From a virus, in the IMG/VR virus record IMGVR_UViG_3300043251_000023, positions 1 to 64,000 of that record: a stretch of DNA of 64,000 nucleotides. One strand, given 5' to 3'. The notes beneath the pieces were generated by a model. The model made no database searches. It was given only the letters and a program-made list of their open reading frames with translations, and was not told the DNA's origin. The position numbers were made by a program, and so were the translations under genes. Of the stretch, positions 152-62,514 are shown one piece after another (the first letter of the stretch is position 1; the number at the start of each line of letters is the position of its first letter).

Positions 152-367
152 ATGAGCGAGCCTGAGCAAATCGAAGACGAAGAGATCGAACTCGTCCCGG
201 TGCCGATGCGCCCGGAGACGCGCGCTGCGCTGCGCCGGTTTGCCGAACGGATCGGTGAGCCGCCCGGCATTGCGGCCGGGATGCTATTCGAAGACCTGCT
301 CGAGGATGAAGATTTTTGGGAAGCGTTCGAAGACTCGACCGAGGTCGAGCCGCAAACCCTTAACTGA
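152..367 (+). CDS. small hypothetical protein, possible ribbon-helix-helix DNA-binding protein
   Basis: 71-aa ORF with a VPVPMRPETRAALRRFAERIG strand-helix-helix-like pattern. Confidence 0.4.
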   Translation: MSEPEQIEDEEIELVPVPMRPETRAALRRFAERIGEPPGIAAGMLFEDLLEDEDFWEAFEDSTEVEPQTLN

Positions 368-378
368 GGAGAACGGCG

Positions 379-771
379 ATGGCGAAAAAAGGCGATCCGA
401 AGGAAGCAGTCCGCAAGGTTACATCGGCGCGCAAGCTGAAGGAATTGCTGGCGTCGGCCAGGTCGGTGCGCAACGATATTTCCGAACTGTCCGGCGGGTT
501 CGGCTCGGAGATCAAGCTCGCGGTGGAAAAGAACCACCTCCACCGCAAGGCGTTCCGCGCCGCCATTGCCGAAGACCGGATGGAGCCGGAAAAGCTCGCG
601 GAATATTACGAACAACTCGACTATTACCGCGACGTCTTGGGCCTTCTCGAGCGGGCACAGAACGCGCCGAAACTGCCGATGGGCGAAGCCACGGAAGGCG
701 AAGAGGAAGGCGAGACCGGCAACGGCACGGTTCATTCGTTCCCGGCGCCGAAAACCGTCGCGGCGGAATGA
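379..771 (+). CDS. GapR/DUF2312-like nucleoid-associated protein (distant)
   Basis: GAGGAG RBS; KAFRAAIAEDRMEPEKLAEYYEQLDYYRDVLGL resembles the GapR C-terminal helices as recalled. Confidence 0.5.
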   Translation: MAKKGDPKEAVRKVTSARKLKELLASARSVRNDISELSGGFGSEIKLAVEKNHLHRKAFRAAIAEDRMEPEKLAEYYEQLDYYRDVLGLLERAQNAPKLPMGEATEGEEEGETGNGTVHSFPAPKTVAAE

Positions 772-1238
772 AGGTCCTGGGCATCGATCCAGGGTTAAGC
801 GGCGGTCTCGCGGTCGTCGAAAGCGGCGACCGCCCCCGGATAATCGGGATTATCGATGTCCCGACGACCGGGGAAAAGGCAAAGCGGCGGGTCGACGTCG
901 CCAAGGTTCTCGCCTTCCTTTGGGAACATCGGCCCGACCACGCCATCATCGAGCGCGCCCAAGCCATGCCGGAACAGGGCGCCAGCTCGGGCTTCATCTA
1001 CGGCCGAGCGGTCGGGGCGCTCGAAGCGATCGTCGAAGGGATGCAGGTCCCGCTAACGGTCATCGAGTCGACGGCATGGAAAAAGGCCCACGCCCTCATC
1101 AAGCGGGGCAAGGAAGACAGCCGGCAGCGGGCGATCAAACTCTTCCCCGCCGCGGCCGGTTTTGAGCGAAAGCTCGATCACAACAGGGCTGAAGCGGCGC
1201 TGATCGCGTGGTACGGGGTGATGCTGCTGAAAGGTTGA
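768..1238 (+). CDS. RuvC-like Holliday junction resolvase
   Basis: MKVLGIDPGLSGG start, IIE motif, DHNRAEAALIA C-terminus; ATG overlaps the upstream stop (ATGA). Confidence 0.85.
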   Translation: MKVLGIDPGLSGGLAVVESGDRPRIIGIIDVPTTGEKAKRRVDVAKVLAFLWEHRPDHAIIERAQAMPEQGASSGFIYGRAVGALEAIVEGMQVPLTVIESTAWKKAHALIKRGKEDSRQRAIKLFPAAAGFERKLDHNRAEAALIAWYGVMLLKG

Positions 1239-1240
1239 CC

Positions 1241-1801
1241 ATGTCGAGACACCACAAGACGCCGCCGCCGTACCGGCCGGAACCGCCGAAGCCGAACAAC
1301 TCGGCGGTCGTCATCGGCATCCTGGCTTTGCTTCTGCTTTTCGGGATCATTTTTTGGCTTTACGAGCCGCCGGCGCCGAAGCCGGTCCCGGCATTGCCGC
1401 CGATCAGCGGGCCGGTCGAACCGCCGCCCGTTGCGGAACCGGCCCCGGTTGTTGCGCCGGAACCCCCTCCCGTTGCGCCGGAGCCGCCCGCTGTTGCGCC
1501 CGAACCGGTTTCACCTCCGCCCCAGGAACCGGTTATTCCCGAAATCACACCGGTTCCCCCCGAAACCGCCGCGCCGCCGCCGCCGGACTTGCCCAATAGC
1601 GGCGTAAGCGCCGCGCCGCCGCCGGTAGCCATCCCCACAACGCCCTTGGCGAGCCCGCCCGTTGCCCATCCGGCCGCCCCGCCCCGACACAGGGTTCATC
1701 CCCGCCCGACGCACCGCCACGCGCCCCGACGCGGACGTGGGGGGTGCCAAGCGTGCCGGGAGCCGATGCCGGCGGACGAGTATTGCTGCGGGGTCTATTG
1801 A
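1241..1801 (+). CDS. proline-rich single-pass membrane protein with Cys-rich tail
   Basis: one hydrophobic helix (AVVIGILALLLLFGIIFWLY), VAPEP repeats, CQAC...YCC end. Confidence 0.55.
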   Translation: MSRHHKTPPPYRPEPPKPNNSAVVIGILALLLLFGIIFWLYEPPAPKPVPALPPISGPVEPPPVAEPAPVVAPEPPPVAPEPPAVAPEPVSPPPQEPVIPEITPVPPETAAPPPPDLPNSGVSAAPPPVAIPTTPLASPPVAHPAAPPRHRVHPRPTHRHAPRRGRGGCQACREPMPADEYCCGVY

Positions 1802-2415
1802 TGCTGCTCGACGCGCTGCCTAAACGGCACTTTGGGGCGATCCTCGCGGATCCTCCCTGGCATTTTCGCTCCCGAACGGCGCTGCAATCATCAAACTGGA
1901 CCAGCCGCCGGGATGCCGAAAAACATTTCGCCACCATGGGGCGGGAAGATATAGCGGCGCTGCCGGTAGGCGACTACGCCGCGCCGGACGCGCATCTTTT
2001 CCTTTGGGTGACTGGTCCCTGCCTTCCCTACGCTTTCGATGTGATGAAGGCGTGGGGCTTCCGCTATTCGGCGGTTGCCTTCACTTGGGTAAAGCTGAAG
2101 CGATCACACGACGCGCTTCAACTTCGCGTCCTGCCGACCATCGAGGGCGATCTTCATGTTGGGCTCGGATTGACCACGCGGAAGAACGCCGAATTTTGCC
2201 TCCTTGGACGGCGCGGCAATGCCAAGCGCCTGTCCAAAAAGGTGCGCGAAATTATCCTTTCGCCAGTACGCGAACACTCGCGCAAGCCTGAAGAGGCCGC
2301 AACCCGCATCGAGGAATACTGCGCCGGCCCTTATCTTGAATTGTTCGCCCGTTCCGAGCGTCCCGGATGGATTTGCCGCGGCGACGAGGTCGGCAAGTTT
2401 TCCGCCGCCGCCTAG
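1801..2415 (+). CDS. MT-A70 family adenine methyltransferase
   Basis: ILADPPW, HLFLWVT, HSRKP and LELFAR motifs. Confidence 0.9.
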   Translation: MLLDALPKRHFGAILADPPWHFRSRTALQSSNWTSRRDAEKHFATMGREDIAALPVGDYAAPDAHLFLWVTGPCLPYAFDVMKAWGFRYSAVAFTWVKLKRSHDALQLRVLPTIEGDLHVGLGLTTRKNAEFCLLGRRGNAKRLSKKVREIILSPVREHSRKPEEAATRIEEYCAGPYLELFARSERPGWICRGDEVGKFSAAA

Positions 2416-2593
2416 TTTCCATCCCGGAATCGAATCGGCTATAGTCCCTGAGTCGGCAGGCCAGCCGGCTTCTACGGGCGGGATTTGAGCTTGGGTCTCC
2501 ACCCCGGCTCGGCCCGCCCGCCCAACGCCCAGTGGAGGGGCAAATGACCGTGACAATTCACGCCCGATTTTCGCCCGCGCCGACGAGGCGCTG

Positions 2594-3064
2594 ATGAGCG
2601 ATCATTTTCGATCACATTGGGAACGCCGACTCGGCCGCTGCGAAAGCCCGATCGAATCGATGCTATTGGAGCAATTCTGCGCTGCGGCGGTTGAATGGGG
2701 TTACGACGTCGGCCGCGCAGTCAAGGTCCAATCCGAAACCATAGTCGTTAAGCCGCAAGCGCATGTAGATCGCTGGCGCGTCGACTTCCTGATCACCTTC
2801 GACTTTTTCGGAAGTCTGATCGAGATCATCGTCGAGTGCGACGGCCATCAATGGCACGAACGGACGAAATCGCAAGCCACGAAAGACCGCTCGCGCGACC
2901 GCGCGCTTCAATCTCTCGGCTATGAGGTTCTGCGGTTCACCGGCTCAGAGATAAACGCGGCGCCAGCTCGATGCGCCTTCGAAGTTTTGGACCGCATCAT
3001 GGAGTTTCAAACCGCGTGCTTTGTCCACGCCGTCGAAACGGCAGAACGGAAAGACGCGCGATGA
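2594..3064 (+). CDS. DUF559/Vsr-like endonuclease
   Basis: ESPIE...RVDF...VECDGHQWH...DRSRDRALQSLGYEVLRFTGSEI. Confidence 0.85.
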   Translation: MSDHFRSHWERRLGRCESPIESMLLEQFCAAAVEWGYDVGRAVKVQSETIVVKPQAHVDRWRVDFLITFDFFGSLIEIIVECDGHQWHERTKSQATKDRSRDRALQSLGYEVLRFTGSEINAAPARCAFEVLDRIMEFQTACFVHAVETAERKDAR

Positions 3065-3753
3065 TCGATGACGATCGCCTTCCGTGGTTCCATTGCTTCC
3101 CGTCGAAGTGGCTTGATGCTCTCGGCGGTCTGCCGGCAGACCAGAAGCTCGTCTATTCGATCATGCTTTTACGCATCTACGACGCCCGCGGCGCCTGCAT
3201 GGACTCGCTCGACGCGATCGCGACCCGCTGTGGGATCAACAAGAGGCGCACGACCGACGCTTTAGACGCTCTATTCAGAGCCGGAAAATTGGTTCGAATC
3301 GAGGGCGGAATCCATAACCCAAGGGCCATCGAACATATCGAGCGCGGCAATGCCCTCCGGGCGGAGCGCCAAAGGGCCGGCGCGGGAGGCGGCAAGAGGG
3401 CGGCGGAAATTCGCAAGCAAAATCAAACAGGGCCGCCTAGCAAAGCTATAGCTAGAGGCAAGCAGAAAGAGAAAGAGGTAGAAGACTCCTTATTCCCTAA
3501 CGGGAATAAGGCGCCGGTTTTGAAAAACGGAAACACTGAAGAGGCCGATCTATTCCGCCGTGGAAAGGAAATACTCGGCCCAGAAGCGGGCGGTCTTATC
3601 AAAAAGGTTTTGAAAGCCAAAGATGGGAACGTTCCGCAGGCGCGAGCCGCAATCGAAATGGCCGTCGGAAGAAACAATCCGCGCGAATACATCGGCGGCG
3701 TGATCAGAGCCGGTAACAGAACGCACGACGACACTGTGGATGGCCGCCTATGA
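3061..3753 (+). CDS. putative replication initiator (YdaU/DUF1376-like N-terminus)
   Basis: LPWFHCFPSKWL...L...QKLVYSIMLLRIYD N-terminus; located directly before the primase-helicase. Confidence 0.6.
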   Translation: MIDDDRLPWFHCFPSKWLDALGGLPADQKLVYSIMLLRIYDARGACMDSLDAIATRCGINKRRTTDALDALFRAGKLVRIEGGIHNPRAIEHIERGNALRAERQRAGAGGGKRAAEIRKQNQTGPPSKAIARGKQKEKEVEDSLFPNGNKAPVLKNGNTEEADLFRRGKEILGPEAGGLIKKVLKAKDGNVPQARAAIEMAVGRNNPREYIGGVIRAGNRTHDDTVDGRL

Positions 3754-4061
3754 TCACCGCCGGCGAGATTCTGCGTGAGCATCGAATCGTCCTACGAGAT
3801 GAGACGATCGGCCGTCACTACGCGACCTGTCCGCAATGTTCGGCGAAACGGAAGCAGGCACACCGAAAGCTGAAATGCCTCGGCGTGACAATAAACGGCG
3901 ACGGCTTGAACTGGGGATGCAATCACTGTGGCTGGACAGGAGGGGGATTCTATGACCGGAAAAACGTTAGGCGCGCTGGGAGTGGCAGCGTTCGAGCATC
4001 GGGGCATATCTCCGGAAACGGCCGGGCGGTACGGGATATATACCGCGCGCCGGACCGATGA
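3750..4061 (+). CDS. primase zinc-binding domain encoded as a separate ORF
   Basis: CPQCS...KCL.V...WGCNHCGWTG zinc ribbon typical of T7 gp4/Twinkle N-termini. Confidence 0.75.
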   Translation: MITAGEILREHRIVLRDETIGRHYATCPQCSAKRKQAHRKLKCLGVTINGDGLNWGCNHCGWTGGGFYDRKNVRRAGSGSVRASGHISGNGRAVRDIYRAPDR

Positions 4062-5469
4062 TGGTGGTCTTGAACCGCACGAAAAAGGCAATGTCGTCGT
4101 CTTTCCGTTCTCCGACCGAGGCGCGGTCGTCAACGAAAAATATCGCGCGCCGTCGAAGAAGTTTTGGCAGCGCGCCGGCGGCAAGCGAACGTTCTGGAAC
4201 GCCGACGCTTTAGACGATCCGGCACTCGAGGACGGTCGAATGCCGCTGGTGATCACCGAGGGAGAGATCGACGCCCTGTCGGCGATCGAGTGTGGTTTTC
4301 CGCTCACCGTATCGGTTCCGGACGGGGCGCCGGGAGTGCCGGAAGGCGAAGAACCTGAGAACCTCGCGCCGCTCGACCCGAAGGCAGAGGATTCCGGAAA
4401 GTTCGAGTTTCTGTGGAACAACCGCGAGCGACTGGCGCGCGTCAAAAGGTTCGTCCTTGCCGTCGATAACGACGGACCAGGCAGACGATTGGCGGCCGAA
4501 CTCATGCGCCGGCTTTCCGCAGCCCGCTGCTCGTTTGTGATCTATCCGGACGGCTGCAAGGATCTCAACGACGTGCTGACAAAGGGCGGCGCCGAAGAGG
4601 TCGCGCGCGTCATCAATGCGGCTAAACCGTATCCGGTTCGCGGTCTTTATCGACTTTCGGAATTTCCGCAAAACGGCGCGCTGCCGACTTTTAGAACCGG
4701 ATGGTCGACGCTCAACAACAATCTTCGCTTATTCGCTGGCGAGTTCATGGTCGTCACCGGCATTCCTGGACACGGCAAATCGACATGGGTTTTGAACTTG
4801 CTTGCTGACGCCGCCGATCTTCATGGATGGCGTTCGGCGATCTTTTCACCGGAGATGCCGACTGTTCCCCAGTTGCGAGACAAGTTGCGGCGCATCACGC
4901 TTCGAGGTCCGATCGAGGGGTCGAGCCACGATATGATCGCCGAGGCCGACGAATGGATTGAGCGAAATTTCGTCTTCATTGATGTCGACCCGACCGGGAA
5001 GGACGATGAAGAGTATGATCTGGATTGGGTGCTTGATCGCGCGACCGACGCTGTTCTGCGCGATGGCGTCCGTGTGCTGGTGATCGACCCTTGGAACGAG
5101 ATCGAACACGCCAAGCGGCGAGACGAGACGATGACGGATTACATCGGTCGCGCCATCCGCGCGATGAAGCGATTTGCGCGTCTATATGAAGTTGCCGTGA
5201 TCGTGGTCGCTCATCCAACCAAAGACGTCGCCAAGGAGGGAAAAAGCCGGCCGCCGACGCTTTATGACATCGAAGGTTCGGCACACTGGTTCAACAAGTG
5301 TGATCATGGAATCGTCGTCGACTGGCCGGATTCAAACATCGCCGAAAGCGTGATCCGCGTCGCAAAGGTTCGATTCGAGGAAAGCGGCGAACGCGGTCAG
5401 GTGCGGTTAAAGTTTGACAGGTATTCGGGCCGGTATGATCTGTTGATCCGCGAGGAGACGCCGCCATGA
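3952..5469 (+). CDS. TOPRIM primase + SF4 (DnaB/T7 gp4/Twinkle-like) helicase
   Basis: ITEGEIDALS and DNDGPG TOPRIM motifs, KDLND, Walker A TGIPGHGKS, VIDPWNE, VAHP; GGAGG RBS before ATG 3952. Confidence 0.92.
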   Translation: MTGKTLGALGVAAFEHRGISPETAGRYGIYTARRTDDGGLEPHEKGNVVVFPFSDRGAVVNEKYRAPSKKFWQRAGGKRTFWNADALDDPALEDGRMPLVITEGEIDALSAIECGFPLTVSVPDGAPGVPEGEEPENLAPLDPKAEDSGKFEFLWNNRERLARVKRFVLAVDNDGPGRRLAAELMRRLSAARCSFVIYPDGCKDLNDVLTKGGAEEVARVINAAKPYPVRGLYRLSEFPQNGALPTFRTGWSTLNNNLRLFAGEFMVVTGIPGHGKSTWVLNLLADAADLHGWRSAIFSPEMPTVPQLRDKLRRITLRGPIEGSSHDMIAEADEWIERNFVFIDVDPTGKDDEEYDLDWVLDRATDAVLRDGVRVLVIDPWNEIEHAKRRDETMTDYIGRAIRAMKRFARLYEVAVIVVAHPTKDVAKEGKSRPPTLYDIEGSAHWFNKCDHGIVVDWPDSNIAESVIRVAKVRFEESGERGQVRLKFDRYSGRYDLLIREETPP

Positions 5470-5883: not shown

Positions 5884-6096
5884 ATGACCGCAGCAGACGT
5901 GCGGAGAATGTTGCAACGGGCTTGTGAAAGAGCCGGGAGCCAACGCGCATGGGCGCGTGAGCATTCGGTTTCCGTTGTTTACGTCAATGACGTTTTAAGC
6001 GGAAACCGCGAGCCTGGCCCTGCGATTTTACAAGCGTTTGGGCTGGAAGCGGAGCGGCGCACCACATATAGGAAAAAAGGGCAACCAAATGGCTGA
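5884..6096 (+). CDS. Cro/Xre-like helix-turn-helix protein
   Basis: GSQRAWAREHSVSVVYVNDVLSGNREPGPAILQAFGL HTH pattern. Confidence 0.8.
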   Translation: MTAADVRRMLQRACERAGSQRAWAREHSVSVVYVNDVLSGNREPGPAILQAFGLEAERRTTYRKKGQPNG

Positions 6097-6718
6097 GCGC
6101 ACCATCGAGATTCCTGAAATCAAACTAGACCGGATCACCGTCAAGGTCGTTGGCACGTCGCCGCTGCTCACGAATCGGTTCGGCGAAAACGCCATTACGT
6201 CCATCGAAAACAAACAACAGAAAAAGGCCAAGGGCGTGAAGGAGGCGCGCGACCCCCACGCGGAGTTTGTCGAAAAACTGCATGTCATAAAAGCAGGTAA
6301 AAGCGATCTTGATGGCACGTTCGGCTATCCGTCCATCGGCATCAAAAAGTGTCTTGTCGTTGCCGGTGGGCGGTTCGCCGACGAAAAGATGACGCATCTG
6401 CGCGGCGCGATCAACATTCTCGGCAGCCTCATCGAAATCAAATCGCCACCCCCGACCATGCGGACGGACACCGTGCGCCTGCAGGGCGGCGTGACCAGCA
6501 TCGCCTATCGGCCGTCGTTCTGGCCGTGGGAAATGGAAATTCCGGTTGTGTATAACGCAGGCATCATCGGCCCCGCGCAAATCCTCAACCTTTTCCAGAT
6601 TGCCGGTTTTGCGGTAGGATTCGGCGCATGGCGCCCCGAACTTAACGGCGTGTTCGGCCAGTTCGTTTTGAAGGATTCCGCCGAAGTCCAGACGAAAGGA
6701 CGGGCCAAGGCGGGATAA
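6089..6718 (+). CDS. stand-alone RAMP/Cas7-like RNA-binding protein (Vipr-like guide-binding effector)
   Basis: N-terminal strand ITVKVVGTSPLL, YPSIGIKKCL, YRPSF.PWEMEIPV and a C-terminal glycine-rich loop AGFAVGFGAWRPELNGVFGQF; no other cas genes; directly followed by the pentamer array. Confidence 0.8.
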   Translation: MAERTIEIPEIKLDRITVKVVGTSPLLTNRFGENAITSIENKQQKKAKGVKEARDPHAEFVEKLHVIKAGKSDLDGTFGYPSIGIKKCLVVAGGRFADEKMTHLRGAINILGSLIEIKSPPPTMRTDTVRLQGGVTSIAYRPSFWPWEMEIPVVYNAGIIGPAQILNLFQIAGFAVGFGAWRPELNGVFGQFVLKDSAEVQTKGRAKAG

Positions 6719-7251
6719 AACACAAGAGCAGACTCGATTTGCTATGCGTTGAACAGACCTTAAGACAGTCAACGAGCATCTGTAGCGAAAAGAAAACAGG
6801 CGCATAGATCGGAGCGGACTCGACAACACTACACAACAAGAGAAAAGTTTAATCCATTTGCCAATAGAGGAGATTAGCAAACTAAGGACGCGACGAGAAT
6901 CGAGAACACGCGAAATGCTTTGTCCATTTGCTATAAGAAAAGCTGAGAGCAAATTTGCGTAGCCTAGCCTTGACACGCAAAGCATCGACGTGAGAACCGC
7001 TGAAATGAAAAGTTTAATTCCTTTGCCATCTGAATGGAGCCGACACGAGGCGAGGCGCGGAGAAAACCCGTGACGACAAATGAAAAGTTTAAACAATTTG
7101 GGCATTTGATAAGAAAAGCTTAGCTGTGACGACAATGGACAACCGAACAACCGAGAAGAAATGTTTTTGTTTGGCCCTTTATCAAAAGAGCCGATTTGCG
7201 TTGCAGAGACGCGCGTAGAAATGTCGTCACGACAATCGAGATGAAATGTCT
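6715..7251 (+). repeat. array of seven tracts of 5-nt units (NG[A/C] or AC[A/C] triplet + variable NN), mostly separated by conserved NGAAA-WGYTT + ~10-nt ...TTTG linkers
   Basis: by my count 71 of 91 core pentamers have G at position 2, 15 more start AC, and none has G at position 3; phase is unbroken over 6781-7090; linkers AATCCATTTG 6851, TGTCCATTTG 6921, AATTCCTTTG 7016, AAACAATTTG 7091, degenerate at 7167. Confidence 0.92.
6715..7251 (+). ncRNA. putative multi-guide precursor RNA (gapped-code guides) for the adjacent RAMP protein
   Basis: the variable dinucleotides of six tracts decode to conserved transposase or mobile-element protein motifs; transcription and processing are not shown. 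Confidence 0.75.
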
Positions 7252-8307
7252 ATATCGATCAAAGAGTATTTTGCGCTGGCTGGAACGTCGTTCACCAACG
7301 ACGATGCGCGGGTTATCGGCCCGGTTCTCCAAGAGATTGCCACCGATGGTAGCGTGACCGCAGAGGCGGTCGTGCAGGCCGCGCATTCCGCAAATAGCCC
7401 ACTGCGCAGCTATTTCGAGTGGGACGACAAAAAGGCTGCTCACCAATATCGAGTCGGCCAAGCCAACTACATGATAAACGCTGTCCGCGTGCGCTTTGTC
7501 AGCGCCGGCAAGGAATATGCGACGCGCGCTTATCGGGTTGTCACCAAGCAGTACGAAGGCGACGCGGCCGGATGGGATGAAGACGAGCGATCCGTCGAAA
7601 TCGTGCGGTCGCCGAACGATGAAATCTTGGCCGCGCTGCGGGAGGTTGATGCGTGGCGCGTCAAATATGCTCACCTTTCCACCTTCCAGAATGCCAAATC
7701 GTTTTTGGTGCCGATCTTCAACCAGATTGCCGAGTTCCGCGCGGATTTGGCTGGCAAAGAGGCTATGCCCATAGACGGGGCGCTCGGCGAGCTTACCCAA
7801 TGGGTTCAAAAATATGGCGACGCCGATGCCGTGTCCGCCTCTGCTCTCCTTGGCGAGCACATTCACTACATGGTGGAGGCGATCAACGAGTCCTGGGAAA
7901 ACTTTGGACGCTTCAAGCATGATCCGGCATTGCGTCGGTCTCTGGTGGAGGAAGAAAACGAGGAATTGCGCGAGCGCGTCCGGATTTTGGAGGAGATGTT
8001 AAACGGGAAGGAAAGTCTGCCGCCGGAATTGAGGTTGACCGCAAGCGAGGAGCGCGTCGTGTCAGCCCTGCTGTCGCGAGACGTTATGACCAAAGAGGCC
8101 ATTTCGATGGCGCTCTATTCCGACCGCCCCGATGTTGCGCCAGAATTAAAAATTGTCGACGTATTCGTGTGCAAAATCAGAGCGAAGATTGAATCGCACG
8201 GGTTGAAAATCGAAACGCATTGGGGACGCGGCTATTCGATGCCGGCGGAGAGTAAGCAAGAGCTGCGCGGCATGATCGCCGCGCGCAAAGAGGCCGCAGC
8301 GGCATGA
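7246..8307 (+). CDS. RAMP-associated partner domain fused to an OmpR/PhoB (CtrA-like) winged-helix DNA-binding domain
   Basis: N-terminal VTAEAVVQAA...SPLRSYFEWDDKKAAHQYR motif; C-terminal LTASE...LYSDRPDVAPELKIVDVFVCKIRAKI...IETHWGRGY. Confidence 0.75.
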   Translation: MSISIKEYFALAGTSFTNDDARVIGPVLQEIATDGSVTAEAVVQAAHSANSPLRSYFEWDDKKAAHQYRVGQANYMINAVRVRFVSAGKEYATRAYRVVTKQYEGDAAGWDEDERSVEIVRSPNDEILAALREVDAWRVKYAHLSTFQNAKSFLVPIFNQIAEFRADLAGKEAMPIDGALGELTQWVQKYGDADAVSASALLGEHIHYMVEAINESWENFGRFKHDPALRRSLVEEENEELRERVRILEEMLNGKESLPPELRLTASEERVVSALLSRDVMTKEAISMALYSDRPDVAPELKIVDVFVCKIRAKIESHGLKIETHWGRGYSMPAESKQELRGMIAARKEAAAA

Positions 8308-32797: not shown

Positions 32798-33700
32798 ATG
32801 GTCGCGTCCGTCACCTTCCAGCCCTACCTGCAGAGCGGCGGCAACGCTGGTCTCTTCAACGTTCAGTCCAGCGGCTATCGGCAGGGCACGGCGATGCCCG
32901 ATCCCTCGACCCGCTATCGCTTGCGGGGTGGCATCTTGGCGACGACCGAGACGCTACCGATGTGGGGAGGGGTCGGCGTCTACGCGAACGTCCCTGGCGG
33001 CGGCTATCCCGGAACGCAGGGCGTTCCTGGTTCCCCGAGCGGTTCTCTCGGTCCGATCCTCGGCCGCGCTACGGCGCTGACCGGTACCACAAAGCTCGCC
33101 GGCTTCTCAGTCTTCGACGAAGCCTACGGCATGATCACGTCGCCGCAATCTCCGGTCCCGCTGGCTGGCTCCGGAATGCAGGTCAACTACTACCCGCTCG
33201 GCTCGCTGGCGCGCATCGTGGTCGCCTGCGATCCGTCCCTGACGTCGCTCCGCGGTGGCACGACCTACCAGCCGGCGGTCGCGTGGGACTTCACGAACCA
33301 GCTTCTCATCCCCGAACTCGGTACGCTCGTGATCTCGTCCGGCACCTACGTCTCCGCCACCGGCGTGATCACGCTGACGATGGCGGTCGCTCCCACCTTC
33401 AGCCCCGGCGACTCGCTCACTCTTGCATCGCTCACCGGCACCGGCGCCTTTGCCACGCTCGACGGCACCTGGACGGTTCTGACCGTTGTTGGTTCCGTGG
33501 TCACTTTGCAGGGTCCGGTCGCGGCTGGCGCGGCGACGATCACCGGCGGCAACGCCACGGTCGGCGGCTCGGCCAGCCAGGCGCTCCCGGTCAACGTACT
33601 CGACATCAATCCGTCGAACTCCGAGACCGTCGTCTACAACTCGACGACCGGCTTCGCGACGTACAACTATTCCGGCGCCGCAGCCCTTATCCAGATTTGA
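32798..33700 (+). CDS. capsid decoration/minor capsid protein
   Basis: between scaffold and major capsid; LPMWGGVG, PQSPVP, WDFTNQ. Confidence 0.7.
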   Translation: MVASVTFQPYLQSGGNAGLFNVQSSGYRQGTAMPDPSTRYRLRGGILATTETLPMWGGVGVYANVPGGGYPGTQGVPGSPSGSLGPILGRATALTGTTKLAGFSVFDEAYGMITSPQSPVPLAGSGMQVNYYPLGSLARIVVACDPSLTSLRGGTTYQPAVAWDFTNQLLIPELGTLVISSGTYVSATGVITLTMAVAPTFSPGDSLTLASLTGTGAFATLDGTWTVLTVVGSVVTLQGPVAAGAATITGGNATVGGSASQALPVNVLDINPSNSETVVYNSTTGFATYNYSGAAALIQI

Positions 33701-61707: not shown

Positions 61708-62514
61708 ATGACGCGCAAGTTTCTCCTGGCGACGACCGCGCTCGTCGCTCTGAGCGCCTCCGCTTTCGCCGCCGATCTTCCGTTGAAAGCACCGCCTGCC
61801 GCTCCTGCTGCTGCCGGTTCCGGCTGGTACGTTGGCATTCTCACCGAAGCCGACGTTGCTCAATCGAACGTGAGTGGCACGAACGTATTCGCGACCAGCC
61901 TCGCCAGCGGTAATCTGACCGCAACCGGCGGCGCCGTGGGTGGCGAGTTCGGCTATATCGGGAATGGTCCCATCGGGTGGTATCGACTTCAGGCCACTGG
62001 CGAATGGAGCGACATTTCTGGCGCCGAGACCGTTCAATCGACGGCAACGACCAGCGCGGCGAGTGCAGCCGTTGCGAGCCGATGGTCCGCGACCCAAGAG
62101 TTCGACATCGGCTTCGAGTGGATTCAAAAAATCTACGCGGCGCTACCGACTCTCGGCGTCATCAACTTCCCGACGTTTACTCCGATCACGCCGACAGTCC
62201 CCGTCGGGGCACCGCGCCAGTACGTTGGCGTCGGCATCAAGGAAGCCGGCCTAACCGGCACCTTTGGCGCCGCTCAGGGTACCTCTGTCGGCGTCTACCC
62301 GATGATCACCGGCGGCTTCATCTGGCCAACGCTCAACGCGGCCGGCAAGCCGAACGGTGGCGCGATCGACGCCTCCGCCGGCGTGGCGTTTCCGGTCAAG
62401 GGATTCACCGTGGGGAACGCCTTCGCGACGGATGGTGCCCCTCTGACGCTCGGCGCTGGCGCTAGCCTCGGCACGCAGTACTGGACCCGGCTGAGCTACC
62501 AGTTCGGCCTGTGA
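61708..62514 (+). CDS. outer-membrane beta-barrel (rhizobial porin/Omp-like)
   Basis: signal peptide + AADLPLKAPP...GWYVG; C-terminal RLSYQF. Confidence 0.8.
   Translation: MTRKFLLATTALVALSASAFAADLPLKAPPAAPAAAGSGWYVGILTEADVAQSNVSGTNVFATSLASGNLTATGGAVGGEFGYIGNGPIGWYRLQATGEWSDISGAETVQSTATTSAASAAVASRWSATQEFDIGFEWIQKIYAALPTLGVINFPTFTPITPTVPVGAPRQYVGVGIKEAGLTGTFGAAQGTSVGVYPMITGGFIWPTLNAAGKPNGGAIDASAGVAFPVKGFTVGNAFATDGAPLTLGAGASLGTQYWTRLSYQFGL

What the first reader, a model, noticed from the sequence alone, without database searches (positions are those of the whole stretch)
7026..7090. Guide 5 decodes (antisense) to R-R-F-P-P-P-W-A-I-E, a widespread rhizobial hypothetical protein
NN series TC AT GC CA GG GG GG AA CG CG; the reverse complement CGnCGnTTnCCnCCnCCnTGnGCnATnGA reads RR[FL]PPP[WC]A[IM][ED]. 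This matches the N-terminus of the small multi-copy 'RRFPPPWxxE' proteins I recall from Bradyrhizobium/Xanthobacteraceae. Inference: being targeted alongside transposases suggests this uncharacterised family marks a mobile element or phage antagonist.
Basis: partly seen in the sequence, partly recalled or inferred. Interest (0 to 1): 0.8.

Follow-up and report, generated by a model that had tools for sequence, protein, structure and literature searches.

The report
Phage VIPR guide targeting RRFPPPW genes
This stretch is one guide RNA of a phage-encoded VIPR system, a recently described relative of CRISPR, and its gapped code matches the conserved start of a very large, unnamed family of small proteins that sit in many copies near integrases in soil alphaproteobacteria.

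Summary
Window 7029-7078 is ten 5-nt units (NN-N-G-A) followed by a conserved tail at 7079-7105. It is unit 5 of an array at about 6720-7250, directly downstream of a 209-aa gene at 6089-6718.

That protein matches the solved SUSP1 Vipr protein (PDB 36pp, profile E 1.5e-14) and folds like Cas7/Csm3. The locus is therefore a VIPR system, described in three 2026 bioRxiv preprints. Its constant motif is N-G-A, not the canonical G-G-Y.

That pattern hits RRFPPPWAI(E/D) in frame, near the N-terminus of roughly 70-85-aa ORFs:
- 2 of 3 exact matches in genome contigs
- 10 of 12 exact matches in metagenome contigs

Two alphaproteobacterial MAGs carry 29 and 18 sites with up to 3 mismatches; the reversed-pattern control gives 0. 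The other register and the 0- and 2-base skips give background only.

The target family has at least 3220 clusters, no name and no Pfam model. Its copies are enriched within 15-20 kb of integrases.

The system is a known kind. What is new is the natural target and the motif variant. Expression, host and biological effect are untested.

The parts
6089..6718 (+). vipr gene (209 aa, P0001): the RAMP/Cas7-like protein that coats the guide RNA, one protomer per pentamer
   Evidence: A profile of 73 homologues matches PDB 36pp_D 'SUSP1 Vipr protein' at E 1.5e-14; the single sequence gives E 7e-4. The AF2 model has pLDDT 94.5. The top Foldseek hits are Csm3/Cmr4, with 99 hits at E<=1e-3. It matches phrog_4652. 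2661 clusters at 50% identity have E<=1e-3.
6720..7250 (+). vrRNA array: about 6-7 units, each a tract of N-N-N-G-A pentamers followed by a roughly 20-27-nt tail
   Evidence: GA phase counts and pentamer listing. Four tail copies at spacings of 70, 95 and 75 nt. Tail consensus from 12 tails in three phages. No Rfam match. Leader and trailer are conserved and the middle units differ in a phage whose Vipr is 98% identical.
6784..6863 (+). unit 2 (tract about 6784-6843, tail 6844-6863)
   Evidence: Pentamer register. No target found in G001/G002 at up to 3 mismatches.
6864..6933 (+). unit 3 (ten pentamers 6864-6913, tail 6914-6933)
   Evidence: No target in G001/G002 and no exact match in viral contigs.
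6934..7028 (+). unit 4 (9-14 pentamers ending at 7003, tail 7004-7028)
   Evidence: The nine-pentamer pattern has no exact match in viral contigs.
7029..7078 (+). guide 5 tract: ten pentamers whose first two bases specify the target
   Evidence: for the tract. Target matches. This unit is absent from the array of L004, where a 76-column gap spans exactly this unit plus its tail.
7079..7105 (+). 3' tail of guide 5
   Evidence: Aligns with the other 11 tails. It carries a one-base insertion that shifts the pentamer phase of the downstream units.
7110..7184 (+). unit 6 (ten pentamers 7110-7159, tail 7160-7184), conserved in L004
   Evidence: No target in G001/G002 or in viral contigs.
7246..8307 (+). 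candidate vipr-accessory (vap-like) gene: an N-terminal phrog_15946 domain plus a C-terminal winged-helix DNA-binding domain
   Evidence: Pfam Trans_reg_C at E 2e-8 and phrog_15946 at E 1e-14. phrog_15946 proteins lie beside the Vipr homologue, within the module, in three actinophages. NCBIfam gives a CtrA-like tail at E 4e-10.

Best explanation
Window 7029-7105 encodes one vrRNA (unit 5) of a phage-borne VIPR system (Viral Interference Programmable Repeat).

Shown here:
- The upstream gene is a Vipr (Cas7-like RAMP) homologue.
- The intergenic array consists of pentamer tracts followed by conserved tails.
- The ten variable dinucleotides of unit 5, read with one skipped base per step, are complementary to the coding strand of RRFPPPWAI(E/D). 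That motif covers roughly codons 5-14 of a huge family of 70-85-aa proteins.

Inferred by homology to the SUSP1 system:
- One Vipr protomer binds each pentamer, buries the constant N-G-A and presents the two variable bases.
- The filament invades double-stranded DNA and pairs two bases out of every three, so the skipped base falls on the codon wobble.
- The bound complex blocks transcription.
- The 29-bp footprint sits on the family's most invariant, promoter-proximal motif. A single guide would therefore match many paralogues at 17-20 of 20 read bases (all 47 sites have at most 3 mismatches; not all of them are family copies) and silence them together.

Inferred from context: those paralogues ride on integrated mobile elements that compete with the phage or restrict it. 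Silencing them would then benefit the phage, as when SUSP1 silences the recombinase of its satellite.

The clade uses N-G-A in place of G-G-Y. The two residues that read the first G in SUSP1 (H17, D177) are N29 and A180 here. The residues that hold the second G (R138, W178) are kept as R141 and W181.
For: Identity of the system:
- PDB 36pp Vipr match and Cas7-like fold.
- The pairing of a Vipr homologue with a period-5 array recurs in Gordonia and Mycobacterium phages, which use canonical NNGGC units.
- A vap-like neighbour is conserved.
- Published rules were read in 10.64898/2026.04.26.720920 (Results; methods sections 20, 26, 27) and 10.64898/2026.04.26.720927 (sections 5, 6).

Register:
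- Positions 1-2 have the highest entropy.
- Protein and RNA co-vary. Homologues next to GGC repeats keep H and D/E; those of this window's clade (window, L006, L007) have N and A. The N-G-A repeats were documented for the window, L004 and L005.

Target:
- 2 of 3 exact genome hits and 10 of 12 exact metagenome hits lie in frame on the motif.
- With one base freed, 9 of 9 viral-contig hits are RRFPPPW[ST]I[ED].
- G001 has 29 sites and G002 has 18 at up to 3 mismatches. Of these, 1+1 are perfect and 5+8 have one mismatch. The reversed-pattern control gives 0.

Controls in the same two genomes:
- Other register: 0 and 5 sites, all with 2-3 mismatches.
- 2-base skip: 1 site, against 3 for its control.
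- 0-base skip: 2 sites.
- Three other guides: 0 sites.
- No self-target at up to 3 mismatches.

Mobile-element context.
Against: - No expression or processing data exist. No RNA run holds the locus.
- The host of the phage is unknown. No close prophage relative was found: 3 of 401 genomes of G001's order carry a Vipr, at only about 40% identity.
- Only one guide of this array has an identified target.
- The perfectly matched variant (WAI[ED]) is a minority, 3 of the 120 best homologues. Most are WT or WS, which costs one mismatch or more.
- Near-exact sites are taxonomically patchy. At up to 1 mismatch, 2 of 401 genomes of the order have a hit, and one of those is a chance hit. At up to 2 mismatches, about 3 of 61 genomes of the family have family-type hits.
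- In SUSP1, changing GGY to GAY or GGA was among the motif perturbations tested, and the text says that perturbing GGY abolished silencing. Function of N-G-A repeats therefore rests on an inferred change in the protein pocket.
- The target family's function is unknown.
- The integrase-proximity test used rounded genome sizes and treated clustered copies as independent.
Confidence: 0.72

Rival explanations
1. Host-directed regulation. The guide is real and hits the family, but the family is ordinary chromosomal host cargo, for example small stress or toxin-antitoxin-like modules. The phage silences it to reprogramme or disarm the host, not to fight other mobile elements.
For: Many copies are not near an integrase: 13 of 24 in G001 and 5 of 18 in G002 lie more than 20 kb from one. 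Upstream partners are diverse small ORFs with overlapping stop and start codons, an operon-like layout typical of two-gene modules. Several copies are decayed or frameshifted.
Against: Copies are enriched near integrases. Both perfect-match copies lie in islands. The family is very patchy among related genomes. It has no match in PADLOC.
Confidence: 0.15
2. Decoy or titration guide. A vrRNA aimed at a highly repeated host sequence soaks up Vipr complexes, as the solo vrRNAs of F5 satellites do by sending SUSP1 VIPR to REP elements. Unit 5 could have been captured from a rival element, or could serve to tune the system.
For: The target is multi-copy, with 18-29 sites per genome. Unit 5 is a single-unit insertion or deletion relative to a phage whose Vipr is 98% identical. 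The precedent was read in 10.64898/2026.10.15.759431, section 7.
Against: The guide sits inside the phage's own array, next to vipr, and carries the array's own tail. The published decoys are encoded by the rival element and aim at hundreds of non-coding repeats. Here the sites are in frame on the start of a coding sequence, with the skipped base on the wobble, which is the signature of silencing guides.
Confidence: 0.07
3. Chance or non-guide. The array is a DNA-level element, such as origin iterons or protein-binding repeats, or the match of unit 5 to the family is coincidental.
For: The array lies in a replication module beside a primase-helicase. About 1-5 exact chance hits are expected for 20 specified bases in 596 Gb (my estimate), and one such hit was seen, L009, which is out of frame. 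No promoter-like site was found.
Against: The neighbouring protein matches the SUSP1 Vipr protein of PDB 36pp, which the structure paper shows coating the vrRNA. The hits are homologous to each other, in frame, and confined to exactly the ten pentamers. Every control pattern gave background only.
Confidence: 0.04

Closest known systems
Type II VIPR of Escherichia phage SUSP1 and the Pseudomonas fulva prophage (bioRxiv 10.64898/2026.04.26.720920 and 10.64898/2026.04.26.720927)
   Same: A Vipr RAMP protein sits next to an array of pentamer tracts, each capped by a conserved 3' tail. A DNA-binding accessory gene is adjacent and the system is phage-borne. The one-base-skip code places the skipped base on the codon wobble. 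There is no self-target. The number of repeats (10) lies within the published range of 9-16.
   Different: Sequence similarity to SUSP1 Vipr is remote (single-sequence E 7e-4). The constant motif is N-G-A, not G-G-Y, and the two residues that read the first G are replaced. The tail is short, about 27 nt, and no pseudoknot was shown. The accessory protein shows no detectable similarity to any SUSP1 gene in tblastn against phages. Activity is untested.
Alternative vrRNA repeats NNNGG, YNNNG and NNNNG, mentioned in the methods of the same paper
   Same: Only the second G of the motif is strongly kept, as in the YNNNG and NNNNG types.
   Different: Here an A (38 of 51, otherwise mostly C) occupies the place of the pyrimidine. 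Whether that logo is already shown in the paper's fig. S17 or its data files could not be checked, because images are not held and supplements are closed.
SUSP1 vrRNA4 against the F5 satellite recombinase (bioRxiv 10.64898/2026.10.15.759431)
   Same: A guide reads invariant codon positions of a gene shared by many related integrated elements, so one guide covers the whole population.
   Different: The target here is a 70-85-aa protein of unknown function, present in many copies within one genome. It is not a single recombinase per satellite. No phenotype is known.
Class 1 CRISPR backbone (Cas7/Csm3 filament on crRNA)
   Same: The fold is the same (Foldseek E about 1e-6 to 1e-7). There is one protomer per fixed step of the RNA, and a thumb interrupts pairing periodically.
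   Different: The step is 5 nt with 2 read bases, against a 6-nt step with 5 read bases. There are no cas genes, no CRISPR repeats and no adaptation module in the locus.
Actinophage loci (Gordonia phages UmaThurman and ODay; Mycobacterium phage Saal and relatives)
   Same: They hold homologous Vipr (about 32-34% identity) and phrog_15946 proteins, and arrays of ten NNGGC units punctuated by a short conserved motif.
   Different: They use the canonical GGC constant motif and keep the H and D/E residues. In the public records the arrays are unannotated or annotated as protein-coding genes.

Membership tests
VIPR system | Vipr protein: a minimal RAMP with an RRM core, a glycine-rich loop and a thumb | tested here: met
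   The profile matches PDB 36pp SUSP1 Vipr at E 1.5e-14. The model has pLDDT 94.5 and resembles Csm3/Cmr4. The G-loop motif G-x-G-x-W-R-P and the thumb arginine are invariant.
VIPR system | vrRNA: 9-16 tandem pentamers in which a conserved trinucleotide alternates with hypervariable NN, followed by an invariable 3' tail | tested here: met
   Ten pentamers plus a tail. The constant part is N-G-A, not G-G-Y, so the feature is met as a 'related consensus', not the canonical motif.
VIPR system | Target recognition by the one-base-skip rule, with the skipped base mostly on the codon wobble and no PAM | tested here: met
   The 1-skip pattern gives 47 sites in two genomes, against 0 for the reversed control, and the exact hits are in frame. 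The 0-skip, 2-skip and other-register patterns give background only. This is bioinformatic evidence for one guide only.
VIPR system | Adjacent vipr-accessory (vap) gene involved in DNA interaction | tested here: inconclusive
   The downstream gene has a winged-helix domain, and its N-terminal domain is the conserved neighbour of Vipr in actinophages. Homology to the published vap1-6 could not be tested because those sequences are in closed supplements.
VIPR system | vrRNAs are expressed as roughly 100-nt RNAs and co-purify with Vipr | not testable with these tools
   No run on record as RNA holds the locus.
VIPR system | Guides do not target their own genome | tested here: met
   0 sites at up to 3 mismatches in the 73.5-kb complete virus record. 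Tested for guide 5 only.
VIPR type II (SUSP1 clade) | GGY constant motif read by H17 and D177; tail with a pseudoknot; vap1 | tested here: not met
   The motif is N-G-A. H17 is N29 and D177 is A180. The tail is short. The locus therefore does not belong to the SUSP1 clade. Its type among I-VII cannot be assigned without the supplements.
CRISPR-Cas | CRISPR repeat-spacer array and cas operon | tested here: not met
   There are no long direct repeats of CRISPR type. The neighbours are replication and regulatory genes.
RRFPPPW small-protein family (target) | Membership of any named protein family | tested here: not met
   No Pfam, NCBIfam, PHROG or PADLOC match. No PDB relative. The atlas neighbours are all 'hypothetical protein'. 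A full-text search for the motif found 0 papers.

The most novel reading that the evidence does not exclude
The RRFPPPW proteins are a core component of a widespread class of small integrative elements, possibly satellite-like, in soil Hyphomicrobiales and other Alphaproteobacteria. On this reading they antagonise or parasitise phages. This phage has evolved a single 'pan-family' VIPR guide that silences all copies at once by reading the only invariant codons. It does so with a re-specified Vipr pocket that reads N-G-A, not G-G-Y. That would give the first functional handle on a dark family of at least 3220 protein clusters, and a natural second 'alphabet' for VIPR guide scaffolds.
Probability: 0.3. 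Interest if true: 0.7.

Novelty: new member of a known kind. Interest (0 to 1): 0.5.

Why it matters
VIPR was described only in 2026, and its natural targets are known mainly for the E. coli and Pseudomonas clades. This is an uncultured soil phage with a remote Vipr.

Two things follow from the results:
- The published one-base-skip, wobble-skipping rule appears to hold for a clade with a different constant motif (N-G-A). That clade also shows matching changes in the residues that read the motif, which is useful for understanding and engineering guide scaffolds.
- The guide points at a very large, unnamed small-protein family, which marks that family as relevant to conflicts between mobile elements. 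That turns an anonymous family into a testable one.

The case also shows that public actinophage records annotate vrRNA arrays as protein-coding genes.

Tried and rejected
Early ideas, dropped after the PDB match:
- A TRAP-like ring protein binding triplets spaced by 2 nt.
- Origin iterons.
- Translation of the pentamer tract into a pentapeptide repeat.
- The 341-aa ORF on the minus strand (6125-7150) as a real gene.

Searches that gave nothing:
- Rfam: no match.
- Tandem Repeats Finder: nothing relevant.
- Simple promoter and terminator scan: no promoter-like site.
- Literature search for 5-nt periodicity or pentanucleotide repeats: nothing useful. The system was found through the PDB entry name and then.

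Host identification:
- A Vipr search in 401 genomes of G001's order found 3 distant homologues and no close prophage.
- A phage-encoded secreted protein (61708-62514) has no Pfam family and only weak N-terminal matches in G002.
- The CtrA-like tail of the vap-like protein and its matches in Rhodobacter, Roseobacter, Paracoccus and Rhizobium phages hint only at an alphaproteobacterial host.

Target family function:
- The AF2 model had pLDDT 59, too poor for a fold search, so none was run.
- PDB profile search: nothing.
- ESM atlas: only unnamed clusters.
- DUF3987 is not a general neighbour: 3 copies in G001 and none in G002.

Other guides:
- u2, u3 and u6 gave no site at up to 3 mismatches in G001/G002.
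- u3, u4 and u6 gave no exact match in viral contigs.
- The exact guide-5 pattern also has no match in viral contigs.

Expression: no RNA holder is listed for the locus.

Not used or not available:
- Supplements of the three preprints are closed. Tables S2-S3, data S3-S4 and the image of fig. S17 may already list this clade, its type or its repeat logo.
Full report
WHAT IS IN THE SEQUENCE

Between the stop of a 209-aa ORF (6089-6718, + strand) and the start of the next ORF (7246) lies about 530 nt of non-coding DNA. Its most striking property is a 5-nt period. The dinucleotide GA occupies a single phase for roughly 300 nt (6760-7060), and the neighbouring stretches each have a phase of their own. 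Written in register, the region is a run of pentamers N-N-N-G-A, with G-C or C-A as minor variants.

The run is punctuated by a short repeat whose consensus, from 12 copies in three related phages, is about 27 nt long. Unit 5 begins right after such a repeat at 7029. It has exactly ten pentamers (7029-7078) and ends in its own copy of the repeat (7079-7105).

Over 51 pentamers from five units, the positional entropies are 1.92, 1.91, 1.68, 0.79 and 0.92 bits.

WHAT THE LOCUS IS

The upstream protein has no Pfam family and belongs to phrog_4652, of unknown function. It is a large family: 2661 clusters at 50% identity have E<=1e-3.

A profile of 73 members matches one solved structure, PDB 36pp 'SUSP1 Vipr protein', at E 1.5e-14; the single sequence gives E 7e-4. 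The AlphaFold model has pLDDT 94.5. It resembles the Cas7-type backbone subunits Csm3 and Cmr4, with 99 matches at E<=1e-3.

The PDB name led to three 2026 bioRxiv preprints on VIPR, Viral Interference Programmable Repeat. I read the following:
- 10.64898/2026.04.26.720920: abstract, Results, methods sections 20, 26 and 27, and several figure legends.
- 10.64898/2026.04.26.720927: abstract and sections 5-6.
- 10.64898/2026.10.15.759431: abstract and sections 6-7.

According to these papers:
- Vipr protomers polymerise on a vrRNA made of 9-16 G-G-Y-N-N units followed by a constant 3' tail.
- They bury G-G-Y and present N-N.
- The complex binds double-stranded DNA in which the read dinucleotides are separated by one skipped base. 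The skipped base usually falls on the codon wobble.
- Binding represses transcription on either strand, without a PAM.
- Natural guides aim at satellites, prophages and other VIPR systems.
- A neighbouring vap gene, often a DNA binder, enhances the effect.
- Alternative repeats NNNGG, YNNNG and NNNNG exist.

The window fits this description part for part: Vipr, an array of tract-plus-tail units, and a downstream gene with a winged-helix domain. The record is a complete 73.5-kb virus with terminal repeats.

INDEPENDENT SUPPORT FROM DISTANT RELATIVES

tblastn finds homologues at about 32-33% identity in 33 phage records, from Gordonia, Mycobacterium and one cyanophage. In three that I opened, a strong period-5 signal sits directly beside the gene. 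The sequence there is a chain of NNGGC units, ten per block, separated by a short constant motif.

The gene on the other side of the module is phrog_15946 in all three. That is the same family as the N-terminal half of the window's downstream gene. The protein-array-partner module is therefore conserved between an alphaproteobacterial-type phage and actinophages.

In the GenBank record of UmaThurman the array is annotated as a protein-coding gene, gp40.

WHICH TWO BASES ARE READ

The canonical unit is G1-G2-Y3-N4-N5. The window's unit has three variable positions, so the register had to be settled.

1. Entropy, as above.
2. Residues. In SUSP1, G1 is read by H17 and D177, and G2 is held by R138 and W178. 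In the alignment to 36pp, the window has N29 and A180 at the G1 positions but keeps R141 and W181. The actinophage proteins that sit next to GGC repeats keep H and D/E, while the window's closest relatives share N and A. The conserved G of the window is therefore G2, the A takes the place of Y3, G1 has become free, and N4-N5 are the two bases after the A.
3. Target search. The alternative register gives only background.

THE TARGET

The one-skip pattern has 20 specified bases. I estimate about 1-5 chance hits in 596 Gb of GC-rich genomes.

- Genome contigs gave three exact hits, all in alphaproteobacterial MAGs. Two are in frame on M-P-x-x-RRFPPPWAIE at the start of 70- and 82-aa ORFs and differ from each other only at skipped bases. 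The third is out of frame, inside an unrelated sequence, and looks like the expected chance hit.
- Metagenome contigs gave 12 exact hits, 10 in frame on RRFPPPWAI(E/D). About 7 are distinct proteins.
- Viral contigs gave none for the exact pattern. With the first base of the alanine codon freed, it gave 9 hits, all RRFPPPW(S/T)I(E/D).

Allowing up to 3 mismatches, the two MAGs hold 29 and 18 sites, against 0 for the reversed pattern. One perfect site is present in each, and 5 and 8 sites have one mismatch. Five of the 29 are an unrelated identical repeat.

Controls in the same two genomes:
- Other register: 0 and 5 sites, all with 2-3 mismatches.
- Two-base skip: 1 site, against 3 for its control.
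- No skip: 2 sites.
- Three other guides of the array: 0 sites.

The guide has no site in its own genome. The match stops exactly at the ends of the ten pentamers. The guide is complementary to the coding strand.

THE TARGET FAMILY

The 70-aa protein has 3220 relatives at E<=1e-3 in the 90%-identity cluster database. All are unnamed and none has a Pfam domain. Of the 120 best, 110 carry RR[FL]PPP[WC]xx[ED], starting at median residue 5. Only 3 have the perfectly matched WAI(E/D), and 51 have W(T/S)I(E/D), which costs one mismatch.

No library names the family, no paper contains the motif, and the structure model was too poor to use.

Distribution is patchy. At up to 1 mismatch, only G001 plus the chance hit among 401 genomes of its order have a site. 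At up to 2 mismatches, about 3 of 61 genomes of its family have family-type sites.

Context points to mobile DNA.
- The perfect copy in G001 lies in an island next to enolase, in this order: integrase, small divergent ORFs, an 805-aa DUF3987 primase-helicase, a small ORF, the target gene. An IS66-family transposase follows about 3 kb further on.
- The perfect copy in G002 lies about 400 bp from a tRNA-Asn, downstream of an AAA_25 helicase and 14 kb from an integrase.
- On proviral contigs, copies lie near a tyrosine integrase and a Mom-like gene, near a serine recombinase, or after tail and lysis genes.
- Genome-wide, 11 of 24 copies (G001) and 13 of 18 (G002) lie within 20 kb of an integrase, against about 20% expected. 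Binomial P is 0.004 and 6e-6. These values are optimistic because copies cluster and genome sizes are rounded.
- Both genomes carry 34-37 integrase matches.

ARRAY DYNAMICS

A phage whose Vipr is 98% identical (L004) shares the leader and the last two units almost base for base. It has different dinucleotides in the middle units and lacks unit 5 altogether; the gap is exactly one unit. Guides are thus gained, lost or replaced as cassettes on a short time scale, as expected for a programmable system under conflict.

MECHANISM AND LIMITS

The most likely reading is that unit 5 is a vrRNA that directs the Vipr filament to the invariant, promoter-proximal codons of RRFPPPW-family genes and blocks their transcription. 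One guide would cover many paralogues, because it reads only codon positions 1 and 2 of a motif that does not vary. This parallels the SUSP1 guide that reads invariant positions of the satellite recombinase.

Steps shown here are the homology, the anatomy, the register and the target match. Steps inferred are expression, filament formation on N-G-A, DNA binding, repression and benefit to the phage.

A decoy role, as for satellite vrRNAs aimed at REP elements, is possible. It fits less well, because the guide is in the phage's own array and the sites are in frame on coding sequence.

NOVELTY

The kind of system is published, so this is a new member. Two aspects may be new: the N-G-A constant motif with matching pocket changes, and the natural target. 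Whether the clade and its logo already appear in the preprint's supplements could not be checked.

Noticed in passing
L001 3627-3950 (NC_031249.1, about 33350-33670): In Gordonia phage UmaThurman the array of NNGGC pentamers is annotated as protein-coding gene 40 ('hypothetical protein'). This is probably a mis-annotated vrRNA array. The arrays in Saal (L002 about 2600-2850) and ODay (L003 about 3615-3790) are unannotated.
   Followed up: partly
L003 1742-4697 (Gordonia phage ODay): A whole VIPR-like module sits between the tail assembly chaperone genes and the tape measure gene. It comprises two HTH genes, a Vipr homologue, the array, a phrog_15946 gene and one more ORF. Its position looks like a mobile insertion inside the tail operon.
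   Followed up: no
window 6125-7150, minus strand: A 341-aa open frame runs antisense through vipr and most of the array. It has no support as a gene. The T-C-N-N-N periodicity on that strand lowers the chance of stop codons.
   Followed up: no
window 7029-7105 versus L004: Unit 5 is a clean single-unit insertion or deletion between two phages whose Vipr proteins are 98% identical. Leader and trailer units are about 95% conserved, and the middle units differ mainly at the read bases.
   Followed up: yes
L050 11610-14432 (G001 contig 16): A 940-aa ORF combines an IS66-family transposase domain with RNase_H_2 and a weak Cas4-like (DUF83) match, in a low-GC patch (48-51% against about 60%).
   Followed up: no
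loci L017, L019, L020, L022, L023, L031, L035, L036: Many RRFPPPW copies are truncated or frameshifted. Intact copies are often preceded by diverse small ORFs with overlapping stop and start codons. One type starts MPRYFF, another has a zinc-ribbon-like CPKCG motif. This suggests shuffled two-gene cassettes.
   Followed up: partly
window 61708-62514: A phage-encoded 268-aa protein with a signal-peptide-like N-terminus has no Pfam family and only weak N-terminal matches in G002. The region also gave the window's highest period-5 Fourier value, but it is ordinary coding sequence.
   Followed up: partly
window 7246-8307: The vap-like protein ends in a CtrA/OmpR-type winged helix whose nearest phage matches are in Rhodobacter, Roseobacter, Paracoccus and Rhizobium phages. 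This hints at an alphaproteobacterial host.
   Followed up: partly
window 240-5469: Upstream of the VIPR locus is a typical early or replication module: RuvC-like resolvase, MT-A70 DNA methyltransferase, DUF559/MTES_1575 endonuclease, primosomal protein and primase-helicase.
   Followed up: no
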